Shown: one piece after another, positions 2-11,844 of the stretch
Layout: every line of letters starts with the position of its first letter
Position numbering within the stretch: the first letter of the stretch is position 1
Origin: Nitriliruptorales bacterium
GTDB taxonomy: Bacteria > Actinomycetota > Nitriliruptoria > Nitriliruptorales > Nitriliruptoraceae
Assembly (NCBI GenBank): GCA_033722375.1
Contig: JAWVZB010000001.1
Location: 5,175-69,174, forward strand
Direction: 5' to 3'
Length of the DNA: 64,000 nt
The notes under the pieces: generated by a model
Database searches by the model: none
What the model was told of the DNA's origin: nothing
Seen by the model: only the letters and a program-made list of their open reading frames with translations
Translations under genes and position numbers: made by a program

Positions 2-373
2 GTGGCGGGTGTGATCGCCCTGATCATCGGGATCGTGACCATCGCCCGGACGGGGATCCCCGCCGAAGGCATCACCGATGCGACCACAGCCGTCGGCCCG
101 TTCGACCGCACCGCGCTCATGGGGCTGATCGAGATCGTCGTCGGGCTCGCGTTCATCGGTGCGGGGGCGGGGCGCAACAGCTCAGCGCTGTTCGCCCTGG
201 GACTCGTCTCCGGTGTCTTCGGCGTCGTCTGGCTGATCGAGCCCAACGCCTTCAACGACGCTCTCGGCGTGAACCGGGCGACCGCGTGGCTCTACCTGCT
301 CTTCGGGTTGGTGTCGTCGATCGTCGGCGGGTGGGCGAGCAACTACGAAGAACGCGTCGTCATCCGCCACTAG
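2..373 (+). CDS. hypothetical integral membrane protein (5-prime end may lie outside the window)
   Basis: ORF 2..373 with several hydrophobic helices (GVIALIIGIVTIA, LMGLIEIVVGLAFIGAGAG, LFALGLVSGVFGVVWLI, WLYLLFGLVSSIVGGW) and strong GC3 bias. No family recognised. Confidence 0.5.
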   Translation: MAGVIALIIGIVTIARTGIPAEGITDATTAVGPFDRTALMGLIEIVVGLAFIGAGAGRNSSALFALGLVSGVFGVVWLIEPNAFNDALGVNRATAWLYLLFGLVSSIVGGWASNYEERVVIRH

Positions 374-426
374 GGCGTGCGGACCACACCGTGGGGTGAC
401 ACGCGTGACCCCCGGAAGCCCGACGG

Positions 427-1365
427 TCAGGCTTGGCTGGTGATCTGATCGATCTCGCGGCGGTCGTCGGGAGGGAGTTCCCATCCGGCTGCGGCCACGT
501 TCGCGTGCACCTGGTCGGGCGTCGTCGCGCCGGCGATCACCGAGGCGACCACGTCGTCTGAGGCCAGCCACGAGATCGCGAGCTCCAACAGCGTGTGTCC
601 ACGCCTCTCCGCGAACGACTCGAGTTCAGCAGTCGTGCGGAGGTTCTCCTCGTTGAGGAACCGCTGCGCGCGTTCTCGGGGGATGGACCCGAGTCGCGTA
701 CCGGGGGGCGGTTCCTCGCCGAGCTCGTACTTGCCGGTCAGAACGCCAGAGGCGAGGGGGTAGTAGGGCAGCACCGCGAGGCCGTGACGACGGCAGGCGG
801 GGATCACCTCGTCCTCGACATCGCGGTGCAGCAGGTTCCAGTGGTTCTGCGCGGAGACGAACCGCGCGAGAGCGTGGTCGCGGGCCGCAGTCTCCGCCTC
901 GTCGATCTGGCGGCCGGAGAAGTTCGAGCACCCGATCTCTCGCACCTTGCCCGCGTGGACGAGCTCGTCGAGGGCTCCGAGTGTCTCCTCGATCGGGACG
1001 TCCTCGTCGGGCCGGTGGAGCTGGTAGAGGTCGATGTAGTCGGTCCCCAGGCGGCGCAGCGAGTCCTCCACGGCGGTCGTGATCCAGTCCGGGGAGGCGC
1101 CCTGACGGGCGGGATCGTCCCCCATCTGCAGCCCGAACTTGGTCGCGATGATCGCCTCGTCTCGTCGGTCACCGAGTGCCGCTCCGAGGATCTCCTCGGA
1201 GCGTCCCTCGCCGTACCGGTCCGCCGTGTCGAACAGCGTCACCCCGGCATCGAGGGCAGCCCGGACGACCCGCTCGCTCTCGGCGGCCTCGAGCCGGCCA
1301 CCGAGGTTGTTGCAGCCGAGTCCCACGATCGACACCGTGAGCGATCCGATCACCCGCTGTCGCAT
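427..1365 (-). CDS. aldo/keto reductase family oxidoreductase
   Basis: The C-terminal 312 aa of ORF 427..2058 carry AKR motifs (LGCNNLGG, FDTADRYGEGRSEEILG, IATKFG, YIDLYQLHRPD, IGCSNF). The ATG at 1365 follows the low-quality upstream run-on. It is divergent from the ligase gene. Confidence 0.9.
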   Translation of the reverse strand: MRQRVIGSLTVSIVGLGCNNLGGRLEAAESERVVRAALDAGVTLFDTADRYGEGRSEEILGAALGDRRDEAIIATKFGLQMGDDPARQGASPDWITTAVEDSLRRLGTDYIDLYQLHRPDEDVPIEETLGALDELVHAGKVREIGCSNFSGRQIDEAETAARDHALARFVSAQNHWNLLHRDVEDEVIPACRRHGLAVLPYYPLASGVLTGKYELGEEPPPGTRLGSIPRERAQRFLNEENLRTTAELESFAERRGHTLLELAISWLASDDVVASVIAGATTPDQVHANVAAAGWELPPDDRREIDQITSQA

Positions 1366-1422
1366 CTGTTCCTCCACTGGGACGTTGCCGCGTTGCCGGA
1401 CGACGTTAGGGTGGCGCTCGAC

Positions 1423-2454
1423 ATGTCGAGTTGGCCGTTCGATCCGCCCCTGGCGCCCATGGAGGCGCGCGTCCGCAAGACCCTCCCTGACGGCGCTTGG
1501 GCCTACGAGCCGAAGTGGGACGGGTTCCGTTGTCTCGCGTGGAGCGGGCCCGAGCCCCGTCTCGACAGCCGCAACGAGAAACCGTTGTTGCGGTACTTCC
1601 CGGAGCTCGAAACAGCGATCGACATGCTCCCCGAGGGGTCGGTGGTCGATGGAGAGGTCGTGATCGTGACGAGCGGGCGTCTCGATTTCGACGCCCTCCA
1701 GCTCCGGCTTCACCCGGCCGAGTCGCGGGTGGAGATGCTCGCCGAGCAGACCCCCGCCCGGCTCATCGCGTTCGATGTGCTCGCGGTGTCGGGGCGGGAC
1801 CTGCGGGAGGAACCGTTCGAAGCCCGTCGGGCGGAGCTCGAAGCGCTGTTCTCCGACCTCGACCCACCATGGCACCTCACGCCCTCGACCACCGACCGTG
1901 ACACCGCCGAGCGCTGGTTCGATCAGTTCGAAGCGGCGGGCTGTGACGGGCTCGTGGCCAAACGCCTCGACGGTCCCTACGAACTCGGTGAACGGGCGAT
2001 GGTGAAACTCAAGCACCGCCGCAGCGTCGACTGTGTCGTCGGGGGATACCGGGTCCACAAGGAGGGCGACCGGTTGGGCTCGTTGCTACTCGGGCTCTAC
2101 GACGACAACGGTGAACTGCACTTCATCGGGCACTGCTCGGGGTTCCCCGACCAGGACCGCATCGAACTCCTCGAACTACTGCAACAGCATCAGGTCGAGG
2201 ACAGCTTCGGCGAGAACGTCCGTCGCCCCGGTCAGGAGAGCCGCTGGTCCTCCGGCAAGGATCTGTCCTGGCACCCGGTCGCGCCGGGGCTCGTCGTGCA
2301 GGTCAGCTACGACCAGCTCACGGGCGACCGCTTCCGGCATGCCACGCGCTTCGAGCGGTGGCGCCCCGACAAGGATCCCACCGCCTGCACCATGGATCAG
2401 CTCGAGCGCCCCGAGGGGCCGAGTTTCGACGACGTCGTCGCCGCTGACGGCTGA
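1423..2454 (+). CDS. ATP-dependent DNA ligase, stand-alone LigC-like (ligase plus OB domain only)
   Basis: The in-frame ATG at 1423 (alternative GTG at 1411) gives 343 aa. Adenylation motif I is YEPKWDGFR, followed by VDGEVV, DGLVAKRLDGPYELGER and MVKLKHRRSVDCVVGG. The part of ORF 595..2454 upstream of 1411 is antisense to the AKR gene. Confidence 0.85.
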   Translation: MSSWPFDPPLAPMEARVRKTLPDGAWAYEPKWDGFRCLAWSGPEPRLDSRNEKPLLRYFPELETAIDMLPEGSVVDGEVVIVTSGRLDFDALQLRLHPAESRVEMLAEQTPARLIAFDVLAVSGRDLREEPFEARRAELEALFSDLDPPWHLTPSTTDRDTAERWFDQFEAAGCDGLVAKRLDGPYELGERAMVKLKHRRSVDCVVGGYRVHKEGDRLGSLLLGLYDDNGELHFIGHCSGFPDQDRIELLELLQQHQVEDSFGENVRRPGQESRWSSGKDLSWHPVAPGLVVQVSYDQLTGDRFRHATRFERWRPDKDPTACTMDQLERPEGPSFDDVVAADG

Positions 2455-2471
2455 AACCGGGGTCGACGCGC

Positions 2472-3464
2472 TCAGTCCTGTGGCTCGCGCGCACGCGACG
2501 GGTTCACCCTCGGGGGCTCGCCCGGTTGCTTCGGATAGTGAGGCGGCCACGGGGCGTCCCCGAGGCCACGCTCCTCGTCCGCGAGCACGCGCTCGAGCGT
2601 CCTGCCGAGGTCGTGGTGGTGGTCGTCGAGCGGGGCGTACAGATCACCGACCTCGCGGTAGCGCTCGGGGAAGCGATCCATCGGGAAGTCCTCGATCGCG
2701 ACCGCGTCGAGCTCGTCCCACGTGAAGGGAGCCGACACGAACCCCGTCTGGCGCACGCTGTAGGCGCTGGCGACGGTCTTGTCCCGAGCCGTCTGATTGA
2801 AGTCGATGAAGACACCGTCGCGCTGTTCCTTCCACCACTTCGAGGTCGCGACGGGGTTGCGGCGTTCCGCCTCACGGGCGATCGCGAGCGCCGCGCGCCG
2901 CACCTCGTGGAAGGTCCACCGTGGCTCGATCCGGACGTAGACGTGGATCCCCGTCGAGCCGGACGTCTTCGGGAAGCCGTGCAGCCCGTCCTCGTCGAGG
3001 ATCTCGCGCACCGTCGCGGCAACCGAGCGGACCTCGTCGAACCCGTGCCCGGGAGTGGGGTCGAGGTCGAGCCGCAGCTCGTCAGGATGGTCCGTGTCCT
3101 CTGCCCGGACCGGCCACGGATGCAGGTCGATGGCGTTGAGCTGGACCATCCGCACGATGTCCGCGGGCGTCCGCGGTACCCACATCGGGCCCGGCTGCGC
3201 CGAGGCGAACCGCACCCGGACCGTCTCGATGCCCGCGCGGGGCTTGGTGCGGCGGAGGTAGAAGGGGTCTTCTCCCACGCCCCGAGGCCATCGCTTGAGC
3301 TGACAGGGCCGCCCCACCACAGCTCGCAACGCGCCGTCGCCGCACGCCAGGTAGTGCTCGATGACGTCGTGCTTGGTCCAACCCTGCTCGGGGAAGAGGA
3401 CCTTGTCCGGGTGCGTGACCCGGACGGGCTCACCGGCGACCTCGAGGTGGATCTCGTCGGTCAC
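2472..3464 (-). CDS. primase-polymerase (LigD PolDom / Prim-PolC-like, archaeo-eukaryotic primase superfamily)
   Basis: 330-aa ORF with typical PolDom strings (VTHPDKVLFPE, LKRWPRGV, LDLDP, FPKTSGSTGIHVYVRI, DFNQTARDKTVASAYSVR). It is convergent with the ligase, with 17 nt between the stops. Confidence 0.85.
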   Translation of the reverse strand: MTDEIHLEVAGEPVRVTHPDKVLFPEQGWTKHDVIEHYLACGDGALRAVVGRPCQLKRWPRGVGEDPFYLRRTKPRAGIETVRVRFASAQPGPMWVPRTPADIVRMVQLNAIDLHPWPVRAEDTDHPDELRLDLDPTPGHGFDEVRSVAATVREILDEDGLHGFPKTSGSTGIHVYVRIEPRWTFHEVRRAALAIAREAERRNPVATSKWWKEQRDGVFIDFNQTARDKTVASAYSVRQTGFVSAPFTWDELDAVAIEDFPMDRFPERYREVGDLYAPLDDHHHDLGRTLERVLADEERGLGDAPWPPHYPKQPGEPPRVNPSRAREPQD

Positions 3465-3476
3465 CCGGGCACCGGA

Positions 3477-3770
3477 TCAGTTCGACGCGGGCTGTCGGCG
3501 CTGCTCGCGCTCGTGGTACTCGGTGAGTCGAGTGTGGAGCTTCGCGGCGCTCAGCTCGGCCTGCGGGTGGTGCTCGTCACGGCGGGCGATCCACAGCGGG
3601 CGATGCCCGGTCCAGGTCGCCGTCTCGTCCACCTCGATCTCCCAACCGGGGAACTCGGACTCGAGCCACTCGATCGCGTCCTTGACCGCTCGCTCCGCGC
3701 TGGGGGTCGTGGTCTCGGTCTCGCAGTCGGTCACGTCAGCTCCGTCGGTCTGTCTCAGCATCTGTCTCAA
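3477..3770 (-). CDS. hypothetical small acidic protein (97 aa) upstream of the primase-polymerase
   Basis: High GC3 across the whole ORF. Its stop lies 12 nt before the primase-polymerase start, on the same strand. No recognisable domain. An alternative start is the second Met (MLRQ). Confidence 0.5.
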   Translation of the reverse strand: MRQMLRQTDGADVTDCETETTTPSAERAVKDAIEWLESEFPGWEIEVDETATWTGHRPLWIARRDEHHPQAELSAAKLHTRLTEYHEREQRRQPASN

Positions 3771-4004
3771 CGCCGGAAGACGCCCTCATCTTCCTCGTCA
3801 ACGACGGTACCGAGGCCGTGTGTCACGGCCCACTGTTCGGCCGGCGAGGCAGGGGAAACCGGGTGGAACGGAGAAGTAGAGACACGACGGAACGCGTGGC
3901 CGACCGAACACGTCATCGATGTGCAACCAGCGCACGTTTCGGCGTACCGTCAGATCACGAACCATCCCTTCCACCAGCCCGGAATCGCACACAGGAGTCC
4001 CACC

Positions 4005-5795
4005 GTGCAGGAGTACACGACGGCAGGTCCGATCGAGCTACAGGACGACGACCATCTCGTCCAGCCGCTCATCGCGCACGCCGATGACCGGCCCCACGCC
4101 CCGCTCCTCTCCTACCGCGACGGTGATCGGTTCGTCGATCTCACGACGTCGGACGTGTGGAACCGCGTCCAGGCACTCGCGAAGGGGCTCATCGCCATCG
4201 GCATCGAACCCAAACAACGGGTCTCGATCATGAGCCACACCCGGCTCGAATGGGTGCTCATGGACTACGCGATCCTGGCCGCAGGTGGCGTCACGGTCCC
4301 GATCTACGAGACCTCCTCGACCGAGCAGATCGAGTGGATCATCTCCGACTCGGGCGCCCGGGCGGTCGTGTTCGAGGACAGCGCTCTCAAGGCGAAGTTC
4401 GACGAGGTCGCCGACGGGCTCGACGACTGCGAGCACACGTTCGTCATCGAGGAGGGCGGGCTCGAAGCGCTCATCGAGGCCGGCAAGGACGTGGACGACG
4501 CGACGCTGGACGAGCGGCTCGAGAACATCTCGACCGACGATCTCGCGACCATCATCTACACGTCCGGGACGACTGGGCGCCCCAAGGGGTGTCTCCTGAC
4601 CCACCACAACCTCCGCAGCAACGTGCTGAACACGGTGCAGCTCATCCAGGAGATGATCACCAAGGACGACAGCCAACTGCTGTTCCTGCCGTTGGCGCAC
4701 TCGTTCGCGAAGATCCTGCTGCTGTCCTCGATCGAGCAGGGCGCCAAGGTCGGTTTCAACACCGAGATGGACAAGCTCACCGAAGAGATGCCGATGTTCG
4801 AGCCGACCTACCTGGCGGCGGTTCCGCGGATCTTCGAGAAGGTCTTCACCGCTGCCCAGCAGCGAGCGGCAGCGGACGGCAAGGGCAAGATCTTCGACAA
4901 GGCTGCCGAGGTCGCCGAGCAGTACTCACGCGAGGAACGCTCTGGCACGGTCAGCCTCAAGACCAAGACGCAGCACTTCGTCTTCGACAAGCTCGTCTAC
5001 GGCAAGCTCCGCGACGTGTTCGGTGGTCAGCTCAAGGCCTCGAACTCCGGCGGTGGCCCCCTCGGTGAGCGCCTCGCTCACTTCTTCAACGGCATCGGGG
5101 TCCAGGTCTACGAGGGCTACGGCCTGACCGAGACCAGCCCCGTCCTGACCTCCAACCGGCCCGATGCGTGGAAGATCGGCACCGTCGGCCAGCCCATCCC
5201 GGGCACCACCATCAAGATCGCCGATGACGGCGAGGTCCTCGCGAAGGGCCCCCAGATCTTCCAGGGCTACTACAACAACGAGGAGGCCACGAGCGAAGCC
5301 ATCGACGACGATGGCTGGTTCCACACCGGTGACATCGGCGAGCTCGACGACGACGGCTTCCTCAAGATCACCGGCCGCAAGAAGGAGATCATCGTCACCG
5401 CGGCGGGCAAGAACGTCGCCCCGGCGGTGCTCGAGGACCGCATCAAGCGTCACCGGCTCGTCAGCCAGGCGATGGTCGTGGGCGACAACCGGAAGTTCAT
5501 CGGGGCGCTCGTCACGATCGACGAGGAGACCTTCCCCCAGTGGGCCGAGGAGCACGGCAAGACCGGCAAGTCGGTCGCCGACCTCACCCAGGACGAGGAG
5601 CTCCGCGCCGAGGTGCAGCAAGCCATCGACGACGCCAACCAGGCCGTGTCGCGTGCCGAGTCGGTCCGCGAGTTCCGCATCCTCCCACAGGACTTCACCG
5701 TCGAGGGCGGCGAGCTCACGCCCACACTGAAGGTCAAGCGTCGCGTCGTCGAAGACCGCTATTCCGAGCACATCGACGATATCTACAGCGGGTAG
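4005..5795 (+). CDS. long-chain fatty-acid--CoA ligase (AMP-dependent synthetase)
   Basis: GTG at 4005 with AGGAG 7 nt upstream. AMP-binding motifs are YTSGTTGRPKG, YEGYGLTETSP, GWFHTGDIGELDDDGFLKITGRKKE and LTPTLKVKRR. The rest of ORF 2526..5795 upstream is antisense run-on. Confidence 0.9.
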   Translation: MQEYTTAGPIELQDDDHLVQPLIAHADDRPHAPLLSYRDGDRFVDLTTSDVWNRVQALAKGLIAIGIEPKQRVSIMSHTRLEWVLMDYAILAAGGVTVPIYETSSTEQIEWIISDSGARAVVFEDSALKAKFDEVADGLDDCEHTFVIEEGGLEALIEAGKDVDDATLDERLENISTDDLATIIYTSGTTGRPKGCLLTHHNLRSNVLNTVQLIQEMITKDDSQLLFLPLAHSFAKILLLSSIEQGAKVGFNTEMDKLTEEMPMFEPTYLAAVPRIFEKVFTAAQQRAAADGKGKIFDKAAEVAEQYSREERSGTVSLKTKTQHFVFDKLVYGKLRDVFGGQLKASNSGGGPLGERLAHFFNGIGVQVYEGYGLTETSPVLTSNRPDAWKIGTVGQPIPGTTIKIADDGEVLAKGPQIFQGYYNNEEATSEAIDDDGWFHTGDIGELDDDGFLKITGRKKEIIVTAAGKNVAPAVLEDRIKRHRLVSQAMVVGDNRKFIGALVTIDEETFPQWAEEHGKTGKSVADLTQDEELRAEVQQAIDDANQAVSRAESVREFRILPQDFTVEGGELTPTLKVKRRVVEDRYSEHIDDIYSG

Positions 5796-5807
5796 TCGCT
5801 GCCATCC

Positions 5808-6158
5808 TCAGGCGACGTCGAACACGAACGCGAGCACGAACCAGGCCGACGGGGCGTAGCTCACGATCGCGAGGCCCTGGAGGAGGCGCGTACGGAACCG
5901 GGATCGCGGCCACCGCGCACGGGTGAGTGCGGTGATCGCTGCGATCACACCCCAGATCAGCAGCAGCCCCCCGCTGTAGACGACGAGCACGGCGAAGAAC
6001 AGGCAGGACATGCCCTCGCAGTTCCATGGCAGCAGGTTGCCCTCGAGCTGACCGAGGACGATGCCGGTGAGGAACAGAGCGGGGGCGGCCAGCGCCCCGA
6101 CCACCGTGGCCCGCCAGTCGGGGTCGAGCGCGGCGAACCAGTCTCTTACCCCCCGCAT
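5808..6158 (-). CDS. hypothetical membrane protein (about 116 aa, 3 predicted TM helices)
   Basis: ATG at 6158 with AGGAG 9 nt upstream. High GC3 and hydrophobic segments (VVGALAAPALFLTGIVLG, CLFFAVLVVYSGGLLLIWGVIAAITAL, VSYAPSAWFVLAFVF). It is convergent with the acyl-CoA ligase. Confidence 0.55.
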   Translation of the reverse strand: MRGVRDWFAALDPDWRATVVGALAAPALFLTGIVLGQLEGNLLPWNCEGMSCLFFAVLVVYSGGLLLIWGVIAAITALTRARWPRSRFRTRLLQGLAIVSYAPSAWFVLAFVFDVA

Positions 6159-6531
6159 CGCACGAGTCTCCTGTGCTGGTCGTGCGTCACCCCGACGTGG
6201 TGCAGAGCCCGGGGCTGGCTCGCGGTCTCCGGCGCTGTCCGGATCCGCTCTGGCGGTCGCCGCTTCGTCGGCTGCTTCGCGGCCGATAGGTCCCCGACGC
6301 GTCCTCACACGATGAACCGTGGCGCCGGAGAGTGTGGTCGGCGTAGACCGCGCGCTCCTGCGGGCTCTGCAGGACCATCATGCCACAGGCCAGGCAGAAA
6401 TGGAAGGGTCCACGACGACTCGACGTTTCTCGTGCCGTGAGCGGTCGCCGCTACGGTGCTCCTGATGGAGGAACCCCCTGGAGCTCGAGGGAGCAGCCGT
6501 CCAGGGTGTCGCGCCGAGTGGTGAGGTTCTC

Positions 6532-7344
6532 GTGGCAGAGCGCGTCACGATCGTGTGGGTGCACGGAGGCGGCTGCGATGGCTGCACTATGTCGGTTCTC
6601 GGGGCGACCTCCCCGCGGCTCGAGGAGCTCGTCAGTGGCCGCTTGACCCGCTCGGAGATCAGCGTGGTGCACCCGCACCTCGTCGTCGAGGCGGGGGACG
6701 CCTACGTCGCGGCGCTCGACGCTGCTCGGCACGGACAATCGGACCCCTACGTCCTCGTGGTCGAAGGTTCGATGTTCGACGAGGCCCTGGCCGGGGCGGG
6801 AACGTTCTCGCGTCTCGGACAGCGCGACGGGGTGCCCGTCACCGTTGAGCAGTGGGTCAGCGACCTGGCGCCCGGGGCGGCAGCGGTGGTGGCGATCGGG
6901 ACGTGCGCCACCTGGGGCGGCATCCCGGCGGCCCGCGGCAACGTGACAGGGGCAGGCGGTGTCGACCAGGTGCTCGGTGCCGACTACGAGAGCGCGACGG
7001 GTCTCCCGATCGTCAACGTGCCAGGCTGCGCCCCGAGCGGGGATGCGTTCCTCGAGACGATCCACTACCTGCTGCTCCACTTCGAGGGAGCGGTGCCGTT
7101 CGACATGGACGAGCTCGGTCGCCCGCGGTGGCTCTACGCCGACGAGACGCCACTGCGGCGGCCACGGCTCCCCGGGATCGCCCGCGAGCCGGACGACGAG
7201 CTCACCGCTGCCTGTCCCGTCCCACAGCGGGGGTGGATCAACCGCCTGGGAGGTTGCGCGAGCGTGGGTGGCGACTGCAACGGGTGTACCCGCCCCGATT
7301 TCCCTGACCGCACGCTGCCACTCGTCGCCGTGACCCGGGACTGA
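6532..7344 (+). CDS. [NiFe]-hydrogenase small subunit, short form without Tat signal
   Basis: Contains VWVHGGGCDGCTMS (CxxC of the proximal cluster), IGTCATWGG, VPGCAPSG and the C-terminal WINRLGGCASVGGDCNGCTRPDF. GTG start with GAGG 5 nt upstream. The stop is 6 nt before the large-subunit gene. Confidence 0.85.
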   Translation: MAERVTIVWVHGGGCDGCTMSVLGATSPRLEELVSGRLTRSEISVVHPHLVVEAGDAYVAALDAARHGQSDPYVLVVEGSMFDEALAGAGTFSRLGQRDGVPVTVEQWVSDLAPGAAAVVAIGTCATWGGIPAARGNVTGAGGVDQVLGADYESATGLPIVNVPGCAPSGDAFLETIHYLLLHFEGAVPFDMDELGRPRWLYADETPLRRPRLPGIAREPDDELTAACPVPQRGWINRLGGCASVGGDCNGCTRPDFPDRTLPLVAVTRD

Positions 7345-7350
7345 TCGGCC

Positions 7351-9192
7351 GTGTGCTTCAACAACCTCCCGATCCTCTTCGATGACTCCGGACGCGCGCG
7401 GCTGGACGAATCACGTGGCTTCGCGGTCGACACCGCGCCGCGTGAGGCGCCGGCCTACGTCGCTCCCTCCGAGGCCAAGGGGAAGACCTTCTCGATCGAT
7501 CCGGTGACCCGGGTGGCCGGCGCGCTCGCGTTCCACACCACCGTGGACCTCGAGGACCGCGTCGTCACGAGCGCACACTCACAGGCTGTGCTGTTCCGTG
7601 GCTACGAGCTGATCCTGCGCGATCGGGAGCCCGAGGAGGCCATCCACATCTCGTCCCGTGCGTGCGGTGTCTGCGGCGGGGTCCACTCCACCGCGTCGGC
7701 CATGGCACTCGAGATGGCCTTCGGCGTCGTGCCTCCGCCGCTCGCGATCATCGCGCGCAACCTCGCCGAAGGGGCGGAGCTGCTCTACGACCACTGCCTG
7801 CATCTGTTCCTGCTCGCGGGGGTCGACTACTCGCAGCAGGTGGTCGAGCAGACGAGCCCCGGGTTGTGGCGACGCGCACAGCGGACCGCTGCTCCGAACG
7901 CCGGCACGCACGGCTTGATGACGATCGCCGACATCATGACGGGTCTCAACCCGCTGCGAGGCAGTCTCGTGACCGAGGCGCTCGAGGTGACCCGGACCGG
8001 ACGCGAGATCGTCTCGCTGGTCTACGGCAAGTACCCCCATCCCTCGGCGATCGTCCCGGCCGGGCTCGGAACGAGTCTCGACCACGCCACCTTGAACCAG
8101 GTTCTGTCACGGATGGTGCGGCTGCTCGATTACGCGAAGAAGGTCGCCACGTTGTGGGACGATCTGGTCGAGTTCTTCCTCGAGGCCGATCCCGACTACC
8201 GGCTGGTCGGTGTTCGCCCCGCCAACCTCATCAGCACCGGCATGTGGGACGACCCCCGCGTCTACGACGCCACCTACGCGAACGCCGACGCGTGGGGGCA
8301 GCGCCGCCTCACGACACCGGGGGTGGTGATCGACGGCGAGCTGCGGACCACGAACCTGCGGCAGATCAACCTCGGGATCGAGGAGTTCGTCGACCACTCG
8401 TTCTACGAGCGGTGGGCCGACGACGACGAGCCCGGGGAGGCACCGGACGGGGCGCCGCTGAGTCCGTTCCACCCGTGGAACAAGCGCACCATCCCCCGTC
8501 CCGAGGCAACGAGCTGGCGGGACCGCTACTCCTGGTCCACCGCCCCGCGCTGGGACCGCGAGGCGATGGAGTCGGGACCGCTCGCCCGGCAGTGGATCAC
8601 GGTCGCCGCGGGACTGGTCGAGACGGAGTTCATCCGGACGGCGCCCGGACGGCTCGAGATCGTCGTCCCCGAGAGCTCCCTGCCCGAGATGACGATCACC
8701 TGGCGGGTGCCCGACACGGTCAACGCGCTCGAGCGGATCCGCGCTCGTGCGACCCACGTGGCCTACTGTCTCATGGCGGGCTACACCTACCTCCTCGAGG
8801 CGTTCGACGCGTTCCGCAGCGGGGAGACCGAGATGGCCGCACCCTACGAGGTCACCGACGGGGTTGGGGTCGGCTTCTGGGAAGCGGGACGGGGAACGCT
8901 CACCCACTACGCGACGATCGAGGACGGCAAGCTCGCCAACTACCAGATCCTCACGCCGTCCACCTGGATGGCCTCGCCTCGCGATCCGTGGGATCTGCCC
9001 GGCCCCTACGAGGAGGCCGTCCTGAACACGCCCATCCTCGAGCACACCGAGGACCCGGACGCGTTCACGGGGATCGACATCCTCCGCACGATCCGGAGCT
9101 TCGATCCGTGCCTGCCCTGTGCCGTACATCTGCACACCGGCGGTGGCACGATCGTCCGGGATGCGACGAGCTGCGCGTGTGGTACGTCATGA
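7351..9192 (+). CDS. [NiFe]-hydrogenase large subunit
   Basis: N-terminal IDPVTRVAGA, L1 motif SSRACGVCGGVH, L2 motif SFDPCLPCAVH followed by a 20-aa tail. Total 613 aa. GTG start at 7351; the exact start is uncertain. Confidence 0.9.
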   Translation: MCFNNLPILFDDSGRARLDESRGFAVDTAPREAPAYVAPSEAKGKTFSIDPVTRVAGALAFHTTVDLEDRVVTSAHSQAVLFRGYELILRDREPEEAIHISSRACGVCGGVHSTASAMALEMAFGVVPPPLAIIARNLAEGAELLYDHCLHLFLLAGVDYSQQVVEQTSPGLWRRAQRTAAPNAGTHGLMTIADIMTGLNPLRGSLVTEALEVTRTGREIVSLVYGKYPHPSAIVPAGLGTSLDHATLNQVLSRMVRLLDYAKKVATLWDDLVEFFLEADPDYRLVGVRPANLISTGMWDDPRVYDATYANADAWGQRRLTTPGVVIDGELRTTNLRQINLGIEEFVDHSFYERWADDDEPGEAPDGAPLSPFHPWNKRTIPRPEATSWRDRYSWSTAPRWDREAMESGPLARQWITVAAGLVETEFIRTAPGRLEIVVPESSLPEMTITWRVPDTVNALERIRARATHVAYCLMAGYTYLLEAFDAFRSGETEMAAPYEVTDGVGVGFWEAGRGTLTHYATIEDGKLANYQILTPSTWMASPRDPWDLPGPYEEAVLNTPILEHTEDPDAFTGIDILRTIRSFDPCLPCAVHLHTGGGTIVRDATSCACGTS

Positions 9193-9202
9193 GGGGCCGC
9201 CC

Positions 9203-10942
9203 GTGAGCACGGACGAGGAGGAGCCCGGCGACGAGGCCGGCACCTCGTCGGCAGGGTCGGGCGTGACCATGCGGCGCCTGTCGCAGGCGTTGGATTCCCT
9301 GGCCGAGGTGCAGGCCGACCTCGACGAGGAGCGGCTCCGCCGGTTCCAGGCGGAGGCACTCCTGGACCGCCTGTTCACGTCGATGTCGGATGCGGTGCTG
9401 GTCGTGGATCCACATGGCGAGGTCGTGCGGGCCAGTGGTGCCGCCCCGCGCCTGTTCGGTCGGCCCGAGGACGAGCTGATCGGATCCGTGCCGGAGGGGT
9501 GGTACGAGGACGAGGTTCCCCTCCGTCCCTGGGACCTCCTCGAACGCGCCCCGTCCGGGCAGTTGCACCTCGAGACGGTGGTCCAGCGACCGGATGGCAG
9601 CAGCCGTGAGGTGAGCCTGTCCTGCACCGTGATCCGGGACCGCGACGGCAAGGTCACCGGAGCCGTACACGCAGCTCGCGACCTCAGCAACGTGCACTAC
9701 CTCCTGCGTGAGGTCCGGGCGGCCGAACAGCGCTGGCGCCTGCTGGCCCACGTCGGAGCTCGACTGTCCGAGGCGCTCGATCCGGAGGACGTGCTCGGGG
9801 AGCTCGTGACCTACCTCGGTGGGGAGACCGAGCTCGGTGTGGCGCTGCTGTTGACAGACGACGGAGTGATCGAGGTCGTGCATCTGTCCCCGGACGTCCC
9901 GGACGGCGAGGTCCTCGACGGGCTCGTCGGGACGGCTCCGTCGGCCGGTTCCAGCCTCGCGGCGGTGCTGGCGGACGGTCAGACGGTGCATGCCCCCGCC
10001 CCACCCTCCGACTTCCCGCTCGCTGGGCCCGCCCTCCCGGCGATGGCATCGGCGGCGGTGCTCCCGCTCACCGCCGACGACCGGACCTTCGGGGCGATGA
10101 TCGTCGCGTCACCGGAGGCGCGTGCGGTGCGGGAGGAACACGTGGACCTCTTCGAGGAGGTCGCCGCACGGATCGCCCTCAGCATCGCGAACGCGCGCTT
10201 GCAGCGTCGGATCATGGAACACCGTGCCGAGCAGGAGGCGGTGGCGTACCGCGACCGCATCCTTGAGGCGATCTCGCACGAGATGAAGACCCCGCTGGCG
10301 GTCCTCACGGGCCAGCTCAAGCAGCTCAAGACCGCCGGCGGGTCCGTCGAGCCCGCCGCGCTCGAGAAGATCGTGGCCAGCGTCGATCGACAGGTCATCC
10401 GGCTCCGGCGGCTCGTGACGCAGTTCCTCGACTACATCCGGGTCGAAGCCGGGCATGAACTGGCGGTCAGCACCCGTCCCGTCGACGTGCGCTCGCTGGT
10501 CGAGACGACCGCCGAGACGGTCGCAGACGAGGGTCGGCTGCGGCTCGACCTCCCCGCCGACCTCCCTCCCGCGGAGGCGGACACGAACCGGCTCGACCTG
10601 GCGCTGGCGAACCTGATCTCGAACGCCCTGAAGTACGCGCCCTCCTCCACCCCGGTCACGGTCACCGGTCGCGAGGCGGGGCGACACGTCGAGATCAGCG
10701 TCACCGACGAAGGGCCCGGCATCCCGATCTCCGAACAGCCGCGACTGTTCGACAAGTTCGCCCGTGGATCCGAGGAGAGTGGGGTCGAAGGGAGCGGCCT
10801 CGGGTTGTACATGACGCGCCAGATGATGCACAGTCAGGGTGGCGAAGTACGGCTGTCGAGCCGCCCCGGAGAGGGAAGCCGGTTCACGCTGGTGTTGCCA
10901 CGCTCGGACGTTGAAGACGAGGGGGACAACGATGAGCAGTGA
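9203..10942 (+). CDS. soluble sensor histidine kinase (PAS - GAF - HisKA - HATPase_c)
   Basis: No TM segment. PAS-like region (LFTSMSDAVLVVDPHGEVV ... DRDGKVTGAVHAARD). GAF-like region. H-box ISHEMKTPLAVL. N/G boxes NLISNALKYAP, DEGPGIP and GSGLGLYMTRQM. In-frame GTG at 9203, 10 nt after the hydrogenase stop; an alternative ATG lies about 66 nt further on. Confidence 0.85.
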   Translation: MSTDEEEPGDEAGTSSAGSGVTMRRLSQALDSLAEVQADLDEERLRRFQAEALLDRLFTSMSDAVLVVDPHGEVVRASGAAPRLFGRPEDELIGSVPEGWYEDEVPLRPWDLLERAPSGQLHLETVVQRPDGSSREVSLSCTVIRDRDGKVTGAVHAARDLSNVHYLLREVRAAEQRWRLLAHVGARLSEALDPEDVLGELVTYLGGETELGVALLLTDDGVIEVVHLSPDVPDGEVLDGLVGTAPSAGSSLAAVLADGQTVHAPAPPSDFPLAGPALPAMASAAVLPLTADDRTFGAMIVASPEARAVREEHVDLFEEVAARIALSIANARLQRRIMEHRAEQEAVAYRDRILEAISHEMKTPLAVLTGQLKQLKTAGGSVEPAALEKIVASVDRQVIRLRRLVTQFLDYIRVEAGHELAVSTRPVDVRSLVETTAETVADEGRLRLDLPADLPPAEADTNRLDLALANLISNALKYAPSSTPVTVTGREAGRHVEISVTDEGPGIPISEQPRLFDKFARGSEESGVEGSGLGLYMTRQMMHSQGGEVRLSSRPGEGSRFTLVLPRSDVEDEGDNDEQ

Positions 10943-11306
10943 CCACGATCGGCGCGTCCTGCTCCTGCTGGTCGACGACGAGCCCGAGATCCGCATGCTC
11001 CTCCGCACCATGCTGGGGGTGCGCAACTGGAACGTCGACGAGGCGTCGTCCGGCCCTGAGGCGCTCGAGAAGTGTGACGAGGACGGCTACCGGGCGATCA
11101 TCCTCGACCAGCGGATGCCGAGGATGACCGGCCTCGAGGTCGCCCGGGAGCTCCGCGACCAGGGCAACGAGACCCCCATCGTGCTCTTCTCCGCCTACCT
11201 GGAACCCGACGTGGAGGCGGGCGCCCAGGAGCTCGGCTTGCCAACGGTGCCGAAGGACGACTTCGACCAGCTCTTCGATGTTCTGGAGCGTCTCGTGCGT
11301 GCCTGA
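10932..11306 (+). CDS. single-domain (receiver-only, CheY-like) response regulator
   Basis: 124 aa with LLLLVDDEPEIR, AIILDQRMPRMTG, IVLFSAY and PKD. No output domain. The ATG at 10932 overlaps the kinase stop by 11 nt. Confidence 0.85.
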   Translation: MSSDHDRRVLLLLVDDEPEIRMLLRTMLGVRNWNVDEASSGPEALEKCDEDGYRAIILDQRMPRMTGLEVARELRDQGNETPIVLFSAYLEPDVEAGAQELGLPTVPKDDFDQLFDVLERLVRA

Positions 11307-11321
11307 GTCGTGCGACTCAGG
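11302..11321. terminator. palindromic hairpin spanning both convergent stop codons (candidate bidirectional terminator)
   Basis: CCTGAGTCG-TG-CGACTCAGG is a perfect 9-bp inverted repeat. It contains the TGA of the response regulator (11304-11306) and the complement of the protease stop (11317-11319). Confidence 0.45.
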
Positions 11322-11844
11322 ACCGGTGGGGTGGGCTCGGGGCCGTGAGCCGCGCCACCTCGGCGTCGATCCTCGCGAGCAGGTCGGGGACGAGCGCCAG
11401 GGCGTCCGCTGATGGTTCCGCCGCGAAGCCCGTGTCGATGGGTTCGACCTCGAGGACGCAGGTGTCCTCCGGCAGTGCGCCGTAGTAGGCCGTGATCGCC
11501 AGGATGTGATCGAGGTCGATCACACCGGAGACGCTCTCGCCGAGCCTCGCCTGGAGCTCTGCTGGATCCGGCCCGTCACGCTGCGGAGCTCGCCATCGGA
11601 TCGTGCCGGGCTCATCGCCGCGCGGGTGGCACGCCACGATCAGGAGGGCGTCCGGAGCCAGCTCCTGGAGTAGGTGAACCACCCGGTGCGCGGCCACGGT
11701 GACCTCCTCGACGTGGACCCCGGCCGGCAGGACCCGTTCGCGGCATCGGCGGGCCACGAGGGGGCCGAGGTCGAGGTCACCGGCCCACGGGATCCCGACG
11801 CCGGCGATCAGCAGCGATACTTCGTCGGTGGTCGTTCGTGGCAT
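11317..11844 (-). CDS. hydrogenase maturation endopeptidase-like protein (HybD/HycI/HoxW family, divergent)
   Basis: 175 aa. LLIAGVGIPWAGDLDLGP resembles the GxGNxxxxDDGxG start of the family. DALLIVACHP and VIDLDHILAI resemble the second and third conserved blocks. Assignment is by hand alignment only. Confidence 0.55.
   Translation of the reverse strand: MPRTTTDEVSLLIAGVGIPWAGDLDLGPLVARRCRERVLPAGVHVEEVTVAAHRVVHLLQELAPDALLIVACHPRGDEPGTIRWRAPQRDGPDPAELQARLGESVSGVIDLDHILAITAYYGALPEDTCVLEVEPIDTGFAAEPSADALALVPDLLARIDAEVARLTAPSPPHRS

What the first reader, a model, noticed from the sequence alone, without database searches (positions are those of the whole stretch)
7351..9192. Large subunit reads RVAGA where canonical enzymes read R-I-E-G-H (proton-gate glutamate replaced)
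All four Ni-Fe cysteine ligands are present: RACGVCGGVH (residues about 102-112) and DPCLPCAVH (residues about 585-593). However, the N-terminal signature IDPVTR-IEGH of standard [NiFe]-hydrogenases is IDPVTR-VAGA here (nt about 7495-7524). The Glu of this motif is Glu18 in D. gigas numbering, with equivalents in D. fructosovorans and E. coli Hyd-1. It is the established first proton acceptor from the active-site cysteine, and its substitution strongly reduces turnover in model enzymes. A natural Ala at this position suggests a slow or differently gated enzyme, again compatible with sensing. The protein also keeps a 20-aa tail after the CxxCxxH motif (LHTGGGTIVRDATSCACGTS), so it needs proteolytic maturation. 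As I recall, the classical regulatory hydrogenase lacks such an extension.
Basis: partly seen in the sequence, partly recalled or inferred. Interest (0 to 1): 0.6.

Follow-up and report, generated by a model that had tools for sequence, protein, structure and literature searches.

The report
Glu-less hydrogenase subunit of a likely H2 sensor
The odd RVAGA motif is real, but it is inherited by a whole branch of air-hydrogen-oxidising enzymes, so it does not mark sensing; gene context suggests this copy belongs to an apparently undescribed kinase-linked side-branch that probably senses hydrogen.

Summary
ORF 7351-9192 encodes a 613-aa [NiFe]-hydrogenase large subunit with all four Ni-Fe cysteines and a 20-aa tail. 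It reads DPVTRVAGAL where canonical enzymes read DPITRIEGH: Ala56 aligns without gaps to Glu28 of E. coli Hyd-1, and Ala58 to His30.

Ala56 is not a sensor adaptation. The same R[VI]AGA motif occurs in all 120 nearest homologues of the genome's own catalytic-type paralogue (contig C99), which I assign to group 1m from its gene cluster. It also occurs in group 1l loci. Group 1h (PDB 5AA5, the best structural match) reads RIVGS. On the tree, the Glu loss maps once to the base of the 1h/1l/1m superclade.

Context is what points to sensing:
- The window protein sits in a 100/100-supported sister clade of 1l+1m.
- Its members pair a short, ~270-aa small subunit with a signalling gene directly downstream: a PAS histidine kinase in 13 loci and GGDEF-EAL in one.
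- One substitution is specific to this clade: Asn535 (Hyd-1 numbering) is Met540.

The tail and a divergent HybD-like peptidase gene support proteolytic maturation, unlike the classical regulatory hydrogenase. Proton exit probably uses the conserved Arg514-Asp147-His148 network or water; this is inferred, not shown.

The parts
6532..7344 (+). Small subunit, 270 aa, no Tat signal. It matches 5AA5 HofK over residues 20-224 and 263-301 only, with the intervening region shortened and no C-terminal part.
   Evidence: Pfam PF01058; PDB alignment; short (259-304 aa) in all sensor-clade loci against 410-495 aa in 1l/1m loci.
7351..9192 (+). [NiFe]-hydrogenase large subunit, 613 aa (the finding).
   Evidence: AF2 model mean pLDDT 84; best PDB match 5AA5 with TM 0.93.
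7495..7524 (+). IDPVTRVAGA. Ala56 (7516-7518) stands at Hyd-1 Glu28 and Ala58 (7522-7524) at His30.
   Evidence: Gap-free HMMER alignment to Hyd-1 and 5AA5; column counts.
7657..7686 (+). L1 motif RACGVCGGVH (Cys105, Cys108).
   Evidence: identical in all 120+120 homologues.
7786..7794 (+). Tyr146-Asp147-His148. Asp147 and His148 correspond to Hyd-1 Asp118/His119, part of the Arg-Asp-His network proposed as an alternative proton route.
   Evidence: Alignment. Asp 60/60 and His 60/60 in the sensor clade; His is Asn in 1m. PMC3325256.
8890..8892 (+). Arg514, equivalent to the pendant Arg509 of Hyd-1. The preceding Gly513 replaces canopy Pro508.
8968..8970 (+). Met540 in PSTWMASPR. Every catalytic group examined has Asn here (Hyd-1 Asn535). 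This is a sensor-clade-specific substitution.
9103..9129 (+). L2 motif DPCLPCAVH (Cys587, Cys590, His593).
9130..9189 (+). 20-aa C-terminal tail LHTGGGTIVRDATSCACGTS with the conserved R-D/E-x-T/N-T/S-C-x-C-G motif.
   Evidence: tail dN/dS 0.11-0.29.
9203..10942 (+). PAS-GAF-HisKA-HATPase histidine kinase, probable GTG start 10 nt after the large-subunit stop.
   Evidence: Pfam; sequence at the junction; the same gene order in orthologous loci.
10932..11306 (+). Receiver-only response regulator, 124 aa; its start overlaps the kinase stop.
   Evidence: Pfam PF00072.
11317..11844 (-). Divergent HybD/HycI-like maturation endopeptidase, convergent to the operon.
   Evidence: Family profile against PDB 5TTX at E 4.4e-15 and HybD 1CFZ at 8.6e-8. 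Homologues lie directly downstream of 1l/1m large subunits and at the same position in L044 and L046.

Best explanation
The gene encodes the Ni-Fe-binding large subunit of a cytosolic hydrogenase. It belongs to a distinct clade, sister to the atmospheric-H2-oxidising groups 1l and 1m, that I did not find described in the held literature. This clade has been recruited as the input module of signalling systems.

The replacement of the canonical proton-gate Glu (and the following His) by Ala-Gly-Ala is not a feature of the sensor. It arose once in the common ancestor of groups 1h, 1l, 1m and this clade, and was inherited.

Proposed mechanism:
- H2 reaches an intact Ni-Fe site (four Cys, pendant Arg514, Asp147, Asp585 all present) and is split.
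- The proton cannot leave by Cys587 to Glu. It leaves more slowly through the conserved Arg514-Asp147-His148 hydrogen-bond network, or through water occupying the cavity left by the small Ala side chains.
- The electrons reduce the clusters of a truncated small subunit that seems to have no outlet to an external acceptor.
- The PAS-GAF histidine kinase encoded 10 nt downstream reads that reduced state or conformation and phosphorylates the receiver-only regulator.
- The likely target is expression of the genome's group 1m hydrogenase.

Before assembly, the 20-aa tail is removed by the dedicated HybD-like peptidase.

Shown here: the motifs, the phylogeny, the gene linkage and the peptidase homology. 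Inferred: H2 as the signal, the proton route, the signalling step, the regulatory target and tail cleavage.
For: - Motif and alignment.
- The same motif appears in the paralogue on C99. All 120 of that paralogue's nearest homologues read R[VI]AGA[LM] with RACGVCGGVH and DPCMPCTTH. So do the loci with five single-TM ORFs between the subunits, the group 1l hallmark (PMC13554262).
- The C99 cluster fits the published group 1m gene set: adjacent S/L genes, HybD, NifU-like, CooC-type, TPR, BirA-like and small TM proteins (PMC9561532).
- Careful ML tree: sensor clade 100/100; 1l+1m 95/95; their union 100/99; with 1h 95/92; RIEGH-bearing representatives fall outside.
- RIEGH is otherwise near-universal among the 50%-identity representatives.
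- Signalling linkage: 13 loci with Cys-bearing sensor-clade large subunits carry a PAS kinase directly downstream, and one carries GAF-PAS-GGDEF-EAL. None of the 10 1l/1m-type loci does.
- In L007 and L054 the sensor operon lies beside a 1l/1m-type catalytic cluster.
- The sensor co-occurs with 1m-type paralogues in G000 and G018.
- Arg514, Asp147 and His148 are each 60/60 in the clade. This network was proposed and mutated as an alternative proton route (PMC3325256).
- The blocked relay of Hyd-1 E28Q can be rescued by H2O/OH- (PMC8020662).
- Purifying selection.
Against: - No biochemical data exist for any member of the clade.
- Full Ni-Fe ligands, a tail and a peptidase are equally what a catalytic enzyme would have.
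- hypD and hypF were not found in this 172-contig assembly. Six of seven related genomes with such large subunits do have hypD, so an assembly gap is likely but not proven.
- The regulator has no output domain, so the target is unknown.
- I could not read atomic coordinates, so no spatial check of what sits near Cys587 was possible.
- The tail and N-terminus are modelled at pLDDT below 50.
- Within the clade, Cys-less derivatives stay kinase-linked. The module can therefore signal something without Ni-Fe chemistry, which leaves room for a non-H2 signal.
Confidence: 0.7

Rival explanations
1. One reading: the Glu-to-Ala change is itself an adaptation that slows or gates the enzyme for sensing.
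For: Glu28 is described as a universal proton gate, and E28Q is proton-transfer-defective until H2O/OH- rescues the relay (PMC8020662). The gene is kinase-linked.
Against: Ala is invariant in the catalytic-type 1m and 1l relatives, and the position is Val/Ile in 1h. The change predates kinase linkage on the tree. From memory, not checked here: the classical group 2b sensor keeps the Glu.
Confidence: 0.05
2. It is an ordinary low-turnover uptake hydrogenase whose operon also carries its own regulators. The kinase would sense something else and control the hydrogenase genes.
For: Intact active-site ligands, tail and peptidase. Two-component genes often flank the operons they control.
Against: The small subunit is ~270 aa and lacks the C-terminal part and partner proteins of 1l/1m enzymes. 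No electron-acceptor gene is present in any of 14 loci. The signalling gene is always immediately downstream, often overlapping, across at least four phyla, and is swapped for GGDEF-EAL in one lineage. Derived Cys-less copies keep the kinase.
Confidence: 0.15
3. The module senses redox state, O2 or CO through its Fe-S or Ni-Fe centres, not H2.
For: Cys-less relatives remain kinase-linked. The kinases carry PAS and GAF domains that often bind redox cofactors.
Against: The window protein and its Actinomycetota and Chloroflexota relatives keep every Ni-Fe ligand, the pendant Arg and the maturation tail under purifying selection. In two cases the operon sits next to H2-oxidising hydrogenase clusters.
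Confidence: 0.08
4. The locus is a decaying relic, because the genome lacks the Hyp maturation machinery.
For: hypD and hypF were not detected in G000.
Against: dN/dS is 0.18-0.31, with all motifs intact against orthologues of 69-79% identity. The genome also keeps a complete-looking group 1m cluster on a 10.9-kb contig that ends inside the cluster. Six of seven relatives with such genes have hypD.
Confidence: 0.02

Closest known systems
Group 1m (HhmSL) and group 1l (HylSL) [NiFe]-hydrogenases of atmospheric-H2 oxidisers (PMC9561532; PMC13554262)
   Same: - Sister clade on the tree, about 50% identity.
- Identical DPVTRVAGAL and RACGVCGGVH motifs.
- The same N-terminal MCFxNLP extension.
- The same ~20-aa tail with a CxCG motif.
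- The same divergent peptidase family.
- 5AA5 is the best structural template.
   Different: - Small subunit ~270 aa instead of 410-495 aa.
- No HylTM, CooC, NifU, TPR or BirA genes in the operon.
- A signalling gene always lies directly downstream.
- Asn535 (Hyd-1 numbering) is Met.
- His148 is kept where 1m has Asn.
- L2 reads DPCLPCAVH instead of DPCMPCTTH.
Group 1h/5 actinobacterial-type hydrogenase (R. eutropha AH, PDB 5AA5)
   Same: Best sequence match (E 2.7e-146) and fold match (TM 0.93). It also lacks the proton-gate Glu (RIVGS). Cytosolic, no Tat signal.
   Different: - L1 is RICGICGDNH.
- No N-terminal MCF extension.
- The tail has no CxC.
- The proximal cluster has an Asp ligand (GCDGD), against CxxC here.
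- The Mg-site Glu is Ser in 1h but Glu86 here.
- Not kinase-linked.
Group 2b regulatory hydrogenase HoxBC/HupUV with kinase HoxJ/HupT
   Same: A hydrogenase heterodimer encoded with a PAS histidine kinase and response regulator. By analogy, it would work as an H2 sensor controlling hydrogenase expression.
   Different: - Different lineage: group 2 structures match at about E-45, against E-146 for 1h.
- The RH large subunit has no C-terminal tail (PMC8229454) and, from memory, keeps the Glu.
- The RH small subunit is predicted to hold three [4Fe-4S] clusters (PMC5665086) and has a C-terminal ~50-aa extension that binds the kinase (PMC5665086, PMC8229454). Here the small subunit is truncated.
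Group 2c diguanylate-cyclase-linked (putative sensory) hydrogenases (HydDB, PMC5037454)
   Same: One member of this clade (L045) is followed by a GAF-PAS-GGDEF-EAL protein in place of the kinase.
   Different: Different lineage. In the window the partner is a kinase.

Membership tests
[NiFe]-hydrogenase large subunit (PF00374) | Profile match plus N-terminal RxCGxCxxxH and C-terminal DPCxxCxxH cysteine pairs | tested here: met
   PF00374 at E 4e-76; RACGVCGGVH and DPCLPCAVH.
[NiFe]-hydrogenase large subunit (PF00374) | Proton-gate Glu in R-[IV]-E-G-H | tested here: not met
   Ala56 aligns to Glu28 of Hyd-1. All 35 canonical representatives have Glu.
[NiFe]-hydrogenase large subunit (PF00374) | Pendant Arg and canopy Asp residues (Hyd-1 R509, D118, D574) | tested here: met
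   Arg514, Asp147 and Asp585 are invariant. Canopy Pro508 is Gly513.
Group 1h (Hhy/AH) | L1 RICGICGDNH, L2 DPCLPCGVH, and clustering with 5AA5 | tested here: not met
   L1 differs. The tree places 1h outside the 1l+1m+sensor clade (100/99).
Group 1l (Hyl) | Five single-TM proteins (HylTM1-5) encoded between the small and large subunit genes; three-cluster long small subunit | tested here: not met
   The subunit genes are 6 nt apart and the small subunit is 270 aa. Five TM ORFs are seen in L013, L016, L017 and L020 but not here.
Group 1m (Hhm) | Adjacent S/L genes with HybD, NifU-like, CooC-type, TPR, BirA-like and small TM genes; membership of the 1m clade | tested here: not met
   Only the adjacency and a peptidase are shared. 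The window protein lies in the sister clade. The C99 cluster of the same genome does meet these features.
Group 2b regulatory hydrogenase | Histidine kinase and response regulator encoded with the hydrogenase | tested here: met
   conserved in orthologous loci.
Group 2b regulatory hydrogenase | Large subunit without a C-terminal extension | tested here: not met
   A 20-aa tail is present. RH lacks one (PMC8229454).
Group 2b regulatory hydrogenase | Phylogenetic membership of group 2 | tested here: not met
   Group 2a Huc matches at E ~5e-45, against 2.7e-146 for 1h. Tree.
Group 2b regulatory hydrogenase | H2-dependent control of kinase activity with low H2 turnover | not testable with these tools
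   Needs biochemistry.

The most novel reading that the evidence does not exclude
H2 sensing evolved a second time, independently of group 2b. A branch of the high-affinity, O2-insensitive atmospheric-H2 oxidisers (1l/1m) lost its outer electron relay and became the input of kinases or c-di-GMP enzymes. This would give bacteria a sensor tuned to trace H2 in air. The whole superclade, sensors and catalysts alike, works without the supposedly universal Glu proton gate. It would use the Arg-Asp-His network or water instead, and the sensor-specific Asn-to-Met change next to the gate would tune residence of the H2-derived state.
Probability: 0.4. Interest if true: 0.7.

Novelty: new variant of a known kind. 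Interest (0 to 1): 0.5.

Why it matters
Two points matter.

First, Glu28 is treated in the mechanistic literature as a universal proton gate of [NiFe]-hydrogenases (PMC8020662). Yet a large natural superclade has none, and that superclade includes the enzyme groups linked to atmospheric H2 uptake. These enzymes are natural experiments for alternative proton exit routes.

Second, the window gene belongs to a widespread kinase-linked sister clade of groups 1l/1m, found in Actinomycetota, Chloroflexota and Acidobacteriota. I found no description of it in the held literature. If it senses H2, it would explain how aerobic soil bacteria regulate high-affinity hydrogenases. It would also offer an O2-insensitive H2 sensor scaffold.

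For the finding as written, the lesson is a correction: the motif should be used as a lineage marker, not as a sign of sensing.

Tried and rejected
- I first filed the C99 paralogue and all long-small-subunit loci as group 1l. After reading PMC9561532, the Actinomycetota loci with adjacent subunit genes, including C99, fit group 1m better.
- I looked for published statements on the missing Glu in group 1h. The 5AA5 paper is not held, and reviews PMC11023054 and PMC10657181 say nothing on it.
- I looked for literature linking kinases to 1h/1l/1m and found none.
- I tried to use the AF2 model for a spatial check of a substitute carboxylate. Coordinates are not exposed, and the tail and N-terminus are low-confidence, so no 3D claim is made.
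- A Pfam scan of the convergent 175-aa ORF gave only HycI at E 0.078. A family profile against the PDB was needed to show the HybD relationship.
- Search for hypD and hypF in the genome was negative. I treat this as a probable assembly gap, not as evidence of decay.
Full report
**Observation**

ORF 7351-9192 (+) translates to a 613-aa protein that matches Pfam PF00374 at E 4e-76. It has these features:
- IDPVTRVAGA at residues 49-58 (nt 7495-7524).
- RACGVCGGVH at residues 103-112.
- DPCLPCAVH at residues 585-593.
- A 20-residue tail, LHTGGGTIVRDATSCACGTS.

HMMER alignments to E. coli Hyd-1 and to the R. eutropha actinobacterial-type hydrogenase 5AA5 have no gap between the DPxTR block and the first CxxC motif. 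Ala56 therefore stands exactly at Glu28 of Hyd-1, and Ala58 at His30.

The motif is fixed, not a chance variant:
- Ala56 and Gly57 are invariant in a 96-sequence alignment.
- All readable motifs among the 120 nearest homologues are R-[VI]-A-G-x.
- Comparison with two orthologues shows synonymous changes inside the motif codons and gene-wide dN/dS of 0.18-0.31.

**Surroundings**

The gene lies in a tightly packed operon:
- A 270-aa small subunit at 6532-7344, 6 nt upstream.
- A PAS-GAF-HisKA-HATPase kinase whose likely GTG start (9203) is 10 nt after the large-subunit stop.
- A 124-aa receiver-only regulator (10932-11306) that overlaps the kinase stop.
- A convergent 175-aa ORF (11317-11844, minus strand).

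The 175-aa ORF alone barely touches Pfam HycI (E 0.078). A profile of its family hits the hydrogenase-2 maturation peptidase 5TTX at E 4.4e-15 and HybD at 8.6e-8. Its homologues sit directly downstream of related large subunits elsewhere. The tail plus a dedicated peptidase supports proteolytic maturation. The classical regulatory hydrogenase of R. eutropha lacks such a tail (PMC8229454).

**Is RVAGA special to this enzyme?**

No.

- The best solved relative is 5AA5, group 1h (E 2.7e-146). The AlphaFold model (pLDDT 84) matches it with TM 0.93. 5AA5 itself reads DPITRIVGSL.
- The same genome carries a second hydrogenase on contig C99 whose 633-aa large subunit also reads DPVTRVAGAL.
- That cluster has adjacent subunit genes, a 465-aa small subunit, a HycI/HybD peptidase, NifU-like, CooC-type, TPR and BirA-like genes, and small single-TM proteins. 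This is the gene set published for group 1m (PMC9561532).
- All 120 of its nearest homologues read R[VI]AGA[LM] with RACGVCGGVH and DPCMPCTTH. They include Haloechinothrix halophila and an Acidothermales MAG protein.
- Loci from Chloroflexota, Armatimonadota and others carry five 80-105-aa single-TM ORFs between the subunit genes. This is the hallmark of group 1l (PMC13554262). They read RVAGAL as well.
- Among 50%-identity representatives of the whole family, RIEGH is otherwise nearly universal.

A careful ML tree gives these supports (ultrafast bootstrap / SH-aLRT):

| Clade | Support |
|---|---|
| Window clade (sensor clade) | 100/100 |
| 1l + 1m | 95/95 |
| Window clade + 1l + 1m | 100/99 |
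| The above + 1h | 95/92 |

RIEGH-bearing representatives fall outside. The simplest reading is one loss of the Glu, and of the His two residues on, at the base of this superclade, before any kinase linkage.

**What does distinguish the window's clade?**

Gene context distinguishes it. I examined 14 loci whose large subunit belongs to this clade and keeps the Ni-Fe cysteines: the window, L006, L007, L008, L012, L014, L018, L033, L044, L045, L046, L054, L055 and L056.
- In all of them the small subunit is 259-304 aa.
- In 13 the next gene is a PAS histidine kinase, often overlapping. In L045 it is a GAF-PAS-GGDEF-EAL protein.
- None of the ten 1l/1m-type loci has a kinase next to the structural genes. 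Each of the nine that are not cut off carries the peptidase homologue instead.

Further context:
- In L007 the sensor operon, a second kinase and a NarL-type regulator lie directly upstream of a 1l/1m-type cluster. In L054 the sensor operon is convergent with such a cluster.
- Among 20 related genomes, only G018 has the orthologue, again together with 1m-type paralogues.
- The small subunit aligns to 5AA5 HofK only over residues 20-224 and 263-301. The intervening region is shortened and there is no C-terminal part.

Column statistics show what is sensor-specific in the large subunit:
- Hyd-1 Asn535 is Met540 (PSTWMASPR) in 60/60 clade members. It is Asn in 1l/1m, 1h and 34/35 canonical enzymes.
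- His148 (Hyd-1 His119) is kept in 60/60 sensor-clade sequences but is Asn in the 1m set.

**Mechanism**

- *Shown.* The Ni-Fe ligands are conserved, as are the pendant Arg514, Asp147, Asp585, the Mg-site Glu86 and the C-terminal His593. The Glu28 and His30 equivalents are absent.
- *From the literature.* Glu28 next to Cys576 is regarded as a universal proton gate. E28Q is proton-transfer-defective, but entry of H2O/OH- can rescue the relay (PMC8020662). An Arg-Asp-His hydrogen-bond network (Arg479, Asp123, His124 in D. vulgaris) has been proposed, and tested by mutagenesis, as an alternative route (PMC3325256).
- *Inferred.* In this superclade the proton leaves by that network or by water in the pocket left by Ala56 and Ala58. 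In the sensor clade the electrons stop in a truncated relay, and the reduced state is read by the kinase, as in HoxBC-HoxJ. The output is probably expression of the 1m hydrogenase.

I could not verify the spatial arrangement because model coordinates are not exposed.

**Comparison and novelty**

- By descent, the protein is closest to groups 1m/1l and then 1h. It fails the defining operon features of each and lies outside their clades.
- By operon layout it resembles group 2b regulatory hydrogenases, and through L045 group 2c. It is not a member of either: wrong lineage, tail present, different small subunit.
- I found no paper in the held library that links a kinase to 1h/1l/1m-type hydrogenases. 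That is absence of evidence only.
- Other agents of this scan reached similar readings on other genomes. One of them pointed me to group 1m, which I checked against the paper and the C99 cluster.

**Caveats**

- hypD and hypF were not detected in this 172-contig assembly. Six of seven related genomes with such large subunits have hypD, and C99 ends inside the hydrogenase cluster. An assembly gap is therefore likely.
- Nothing here measures activity.

**Verdict**

- Observation: confirmed.
- Interpretation: partly supported. The enzyme is probably a sensor, but the RVAGA motif is a lineage marker shared with catalytic enzymes, not evidence of sensing.
- Interest: moderate. The motif is explained. 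The clade it belongs to, and the Glu-less superclade as a whole, deserve experimental attention.

Noticed in passing
L012 6104-9803, L014 6158-9806, L021 7995-11686, L027 6068-9833 and about 15 more Acidobacteriota/Blastocatellia loci (some labelled Heliobacteriaceae): Nested inside the sensor clade are two derived forms. One is tail-less large subunits that end exactly at DPCLHCAVH. The other is tandem pairs of large-subunit paralogues that have lost all four Ni-Fe cysteines (RxSGxxSGAH; the protein ends ...SFDP). Both are still preceded by a short small subunit and followed by a 750-1280-aa hybrid PAS/GAF histidine kinase. These look like cofactor-less hydrogenase-like signalling modules.
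   Followed up: partly
window 7354-7356 (Cys2) and 9172-9180 (Cys608-Ala-Cys610); same in 241 homologues: Every tail-bearing 1l/1m/sensor large subunit that is complete at its N-terminus starts M-C-[FLM]-x-N-L-P, and all 241 carry a C-x-C-G in the tail. The tail-less Acidobacteriota forms have lost both (MYF/MVF starts). Group 1h has neither. This suggests Cys2 and the tail Cys pair work together, for example as a metal site used in maturation. The co-loss may be a single event. AF2 places both ends at pLDDT below 50.
   Followed up: partly
window 8968-8970 (Met540): The Asn-to-Met change in the PSTW[N/M]ASPR loop is a clean synapomorphy of the whole kinase-linked clade, including its Cys-less members. 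From memory, the loop neighbours the Glu/Cys proton-gate region (D. fructosovorans Ser499). Spatial proximity was not checked.
   Followed up: partly
own genome contig C99 (10.9 kb), 79-10200: Group 1m-type hydrogenase cluster: single-TM proteins, a 465-aa small subunit, a 633-aa large subunit, a peptidase-like ORF, BirA-like, TPR, HycI, NifU-like, PadR and CooC-type genes. The contig ends inside the cluster.
   Followed up: partly
own genome G000: No hypD (PF01924) or hypF (TIGR00143) is detectable, despite two hydrogenase loci and 99% estimated completeness. Six of seven related genomes with such large subunits have hypD.
   Followed up: partly
L045 6208-11624: In one Actinomycetota relative (67% identity) the gene after the large subunit is GAF-PAS-GGDEF-EAL instead of a kinase. 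The small subunit is called as two ORFs (132 + 127 aa), which could be a frameshift or a split.
   Followed up: no
L007 4462-15273; L054 5105-13860: The sensor operon lies directly beside a 1l/1m-type catalytic hydrogenase cluster. In L007 an extra GAF kinase and a NarL/LuxR-type regulator lie between them. In L054 a 493-aa Rieske protein, HycI and HxlR lie between them.
   Followed up: partly
L006 11203-12318; L033 11569-12357: In Acidimicrobiia the response regulator of the sensor operon is a PadR-receiver fusion, an unusual DNA-binding output. In the window and its closest relatives it is receiver-only.
   Followed up: no
L035 5155-7935; L018 7896-9853: L035 has a single 926-aa ORF that fuses a small-subunit-like and a Cys-less large-subunit-like protein. 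In L018 the large subunit is split into 168-aa and 509-aa ORFs, a probable frameshift.
   Followed up: no
window 6532-7344: The proximal-cluster motif of the small subunit is GCDGC (four Cys), where 5AA5 HofK has GCDGD (three Cys and one Asp).
   Followed up: no
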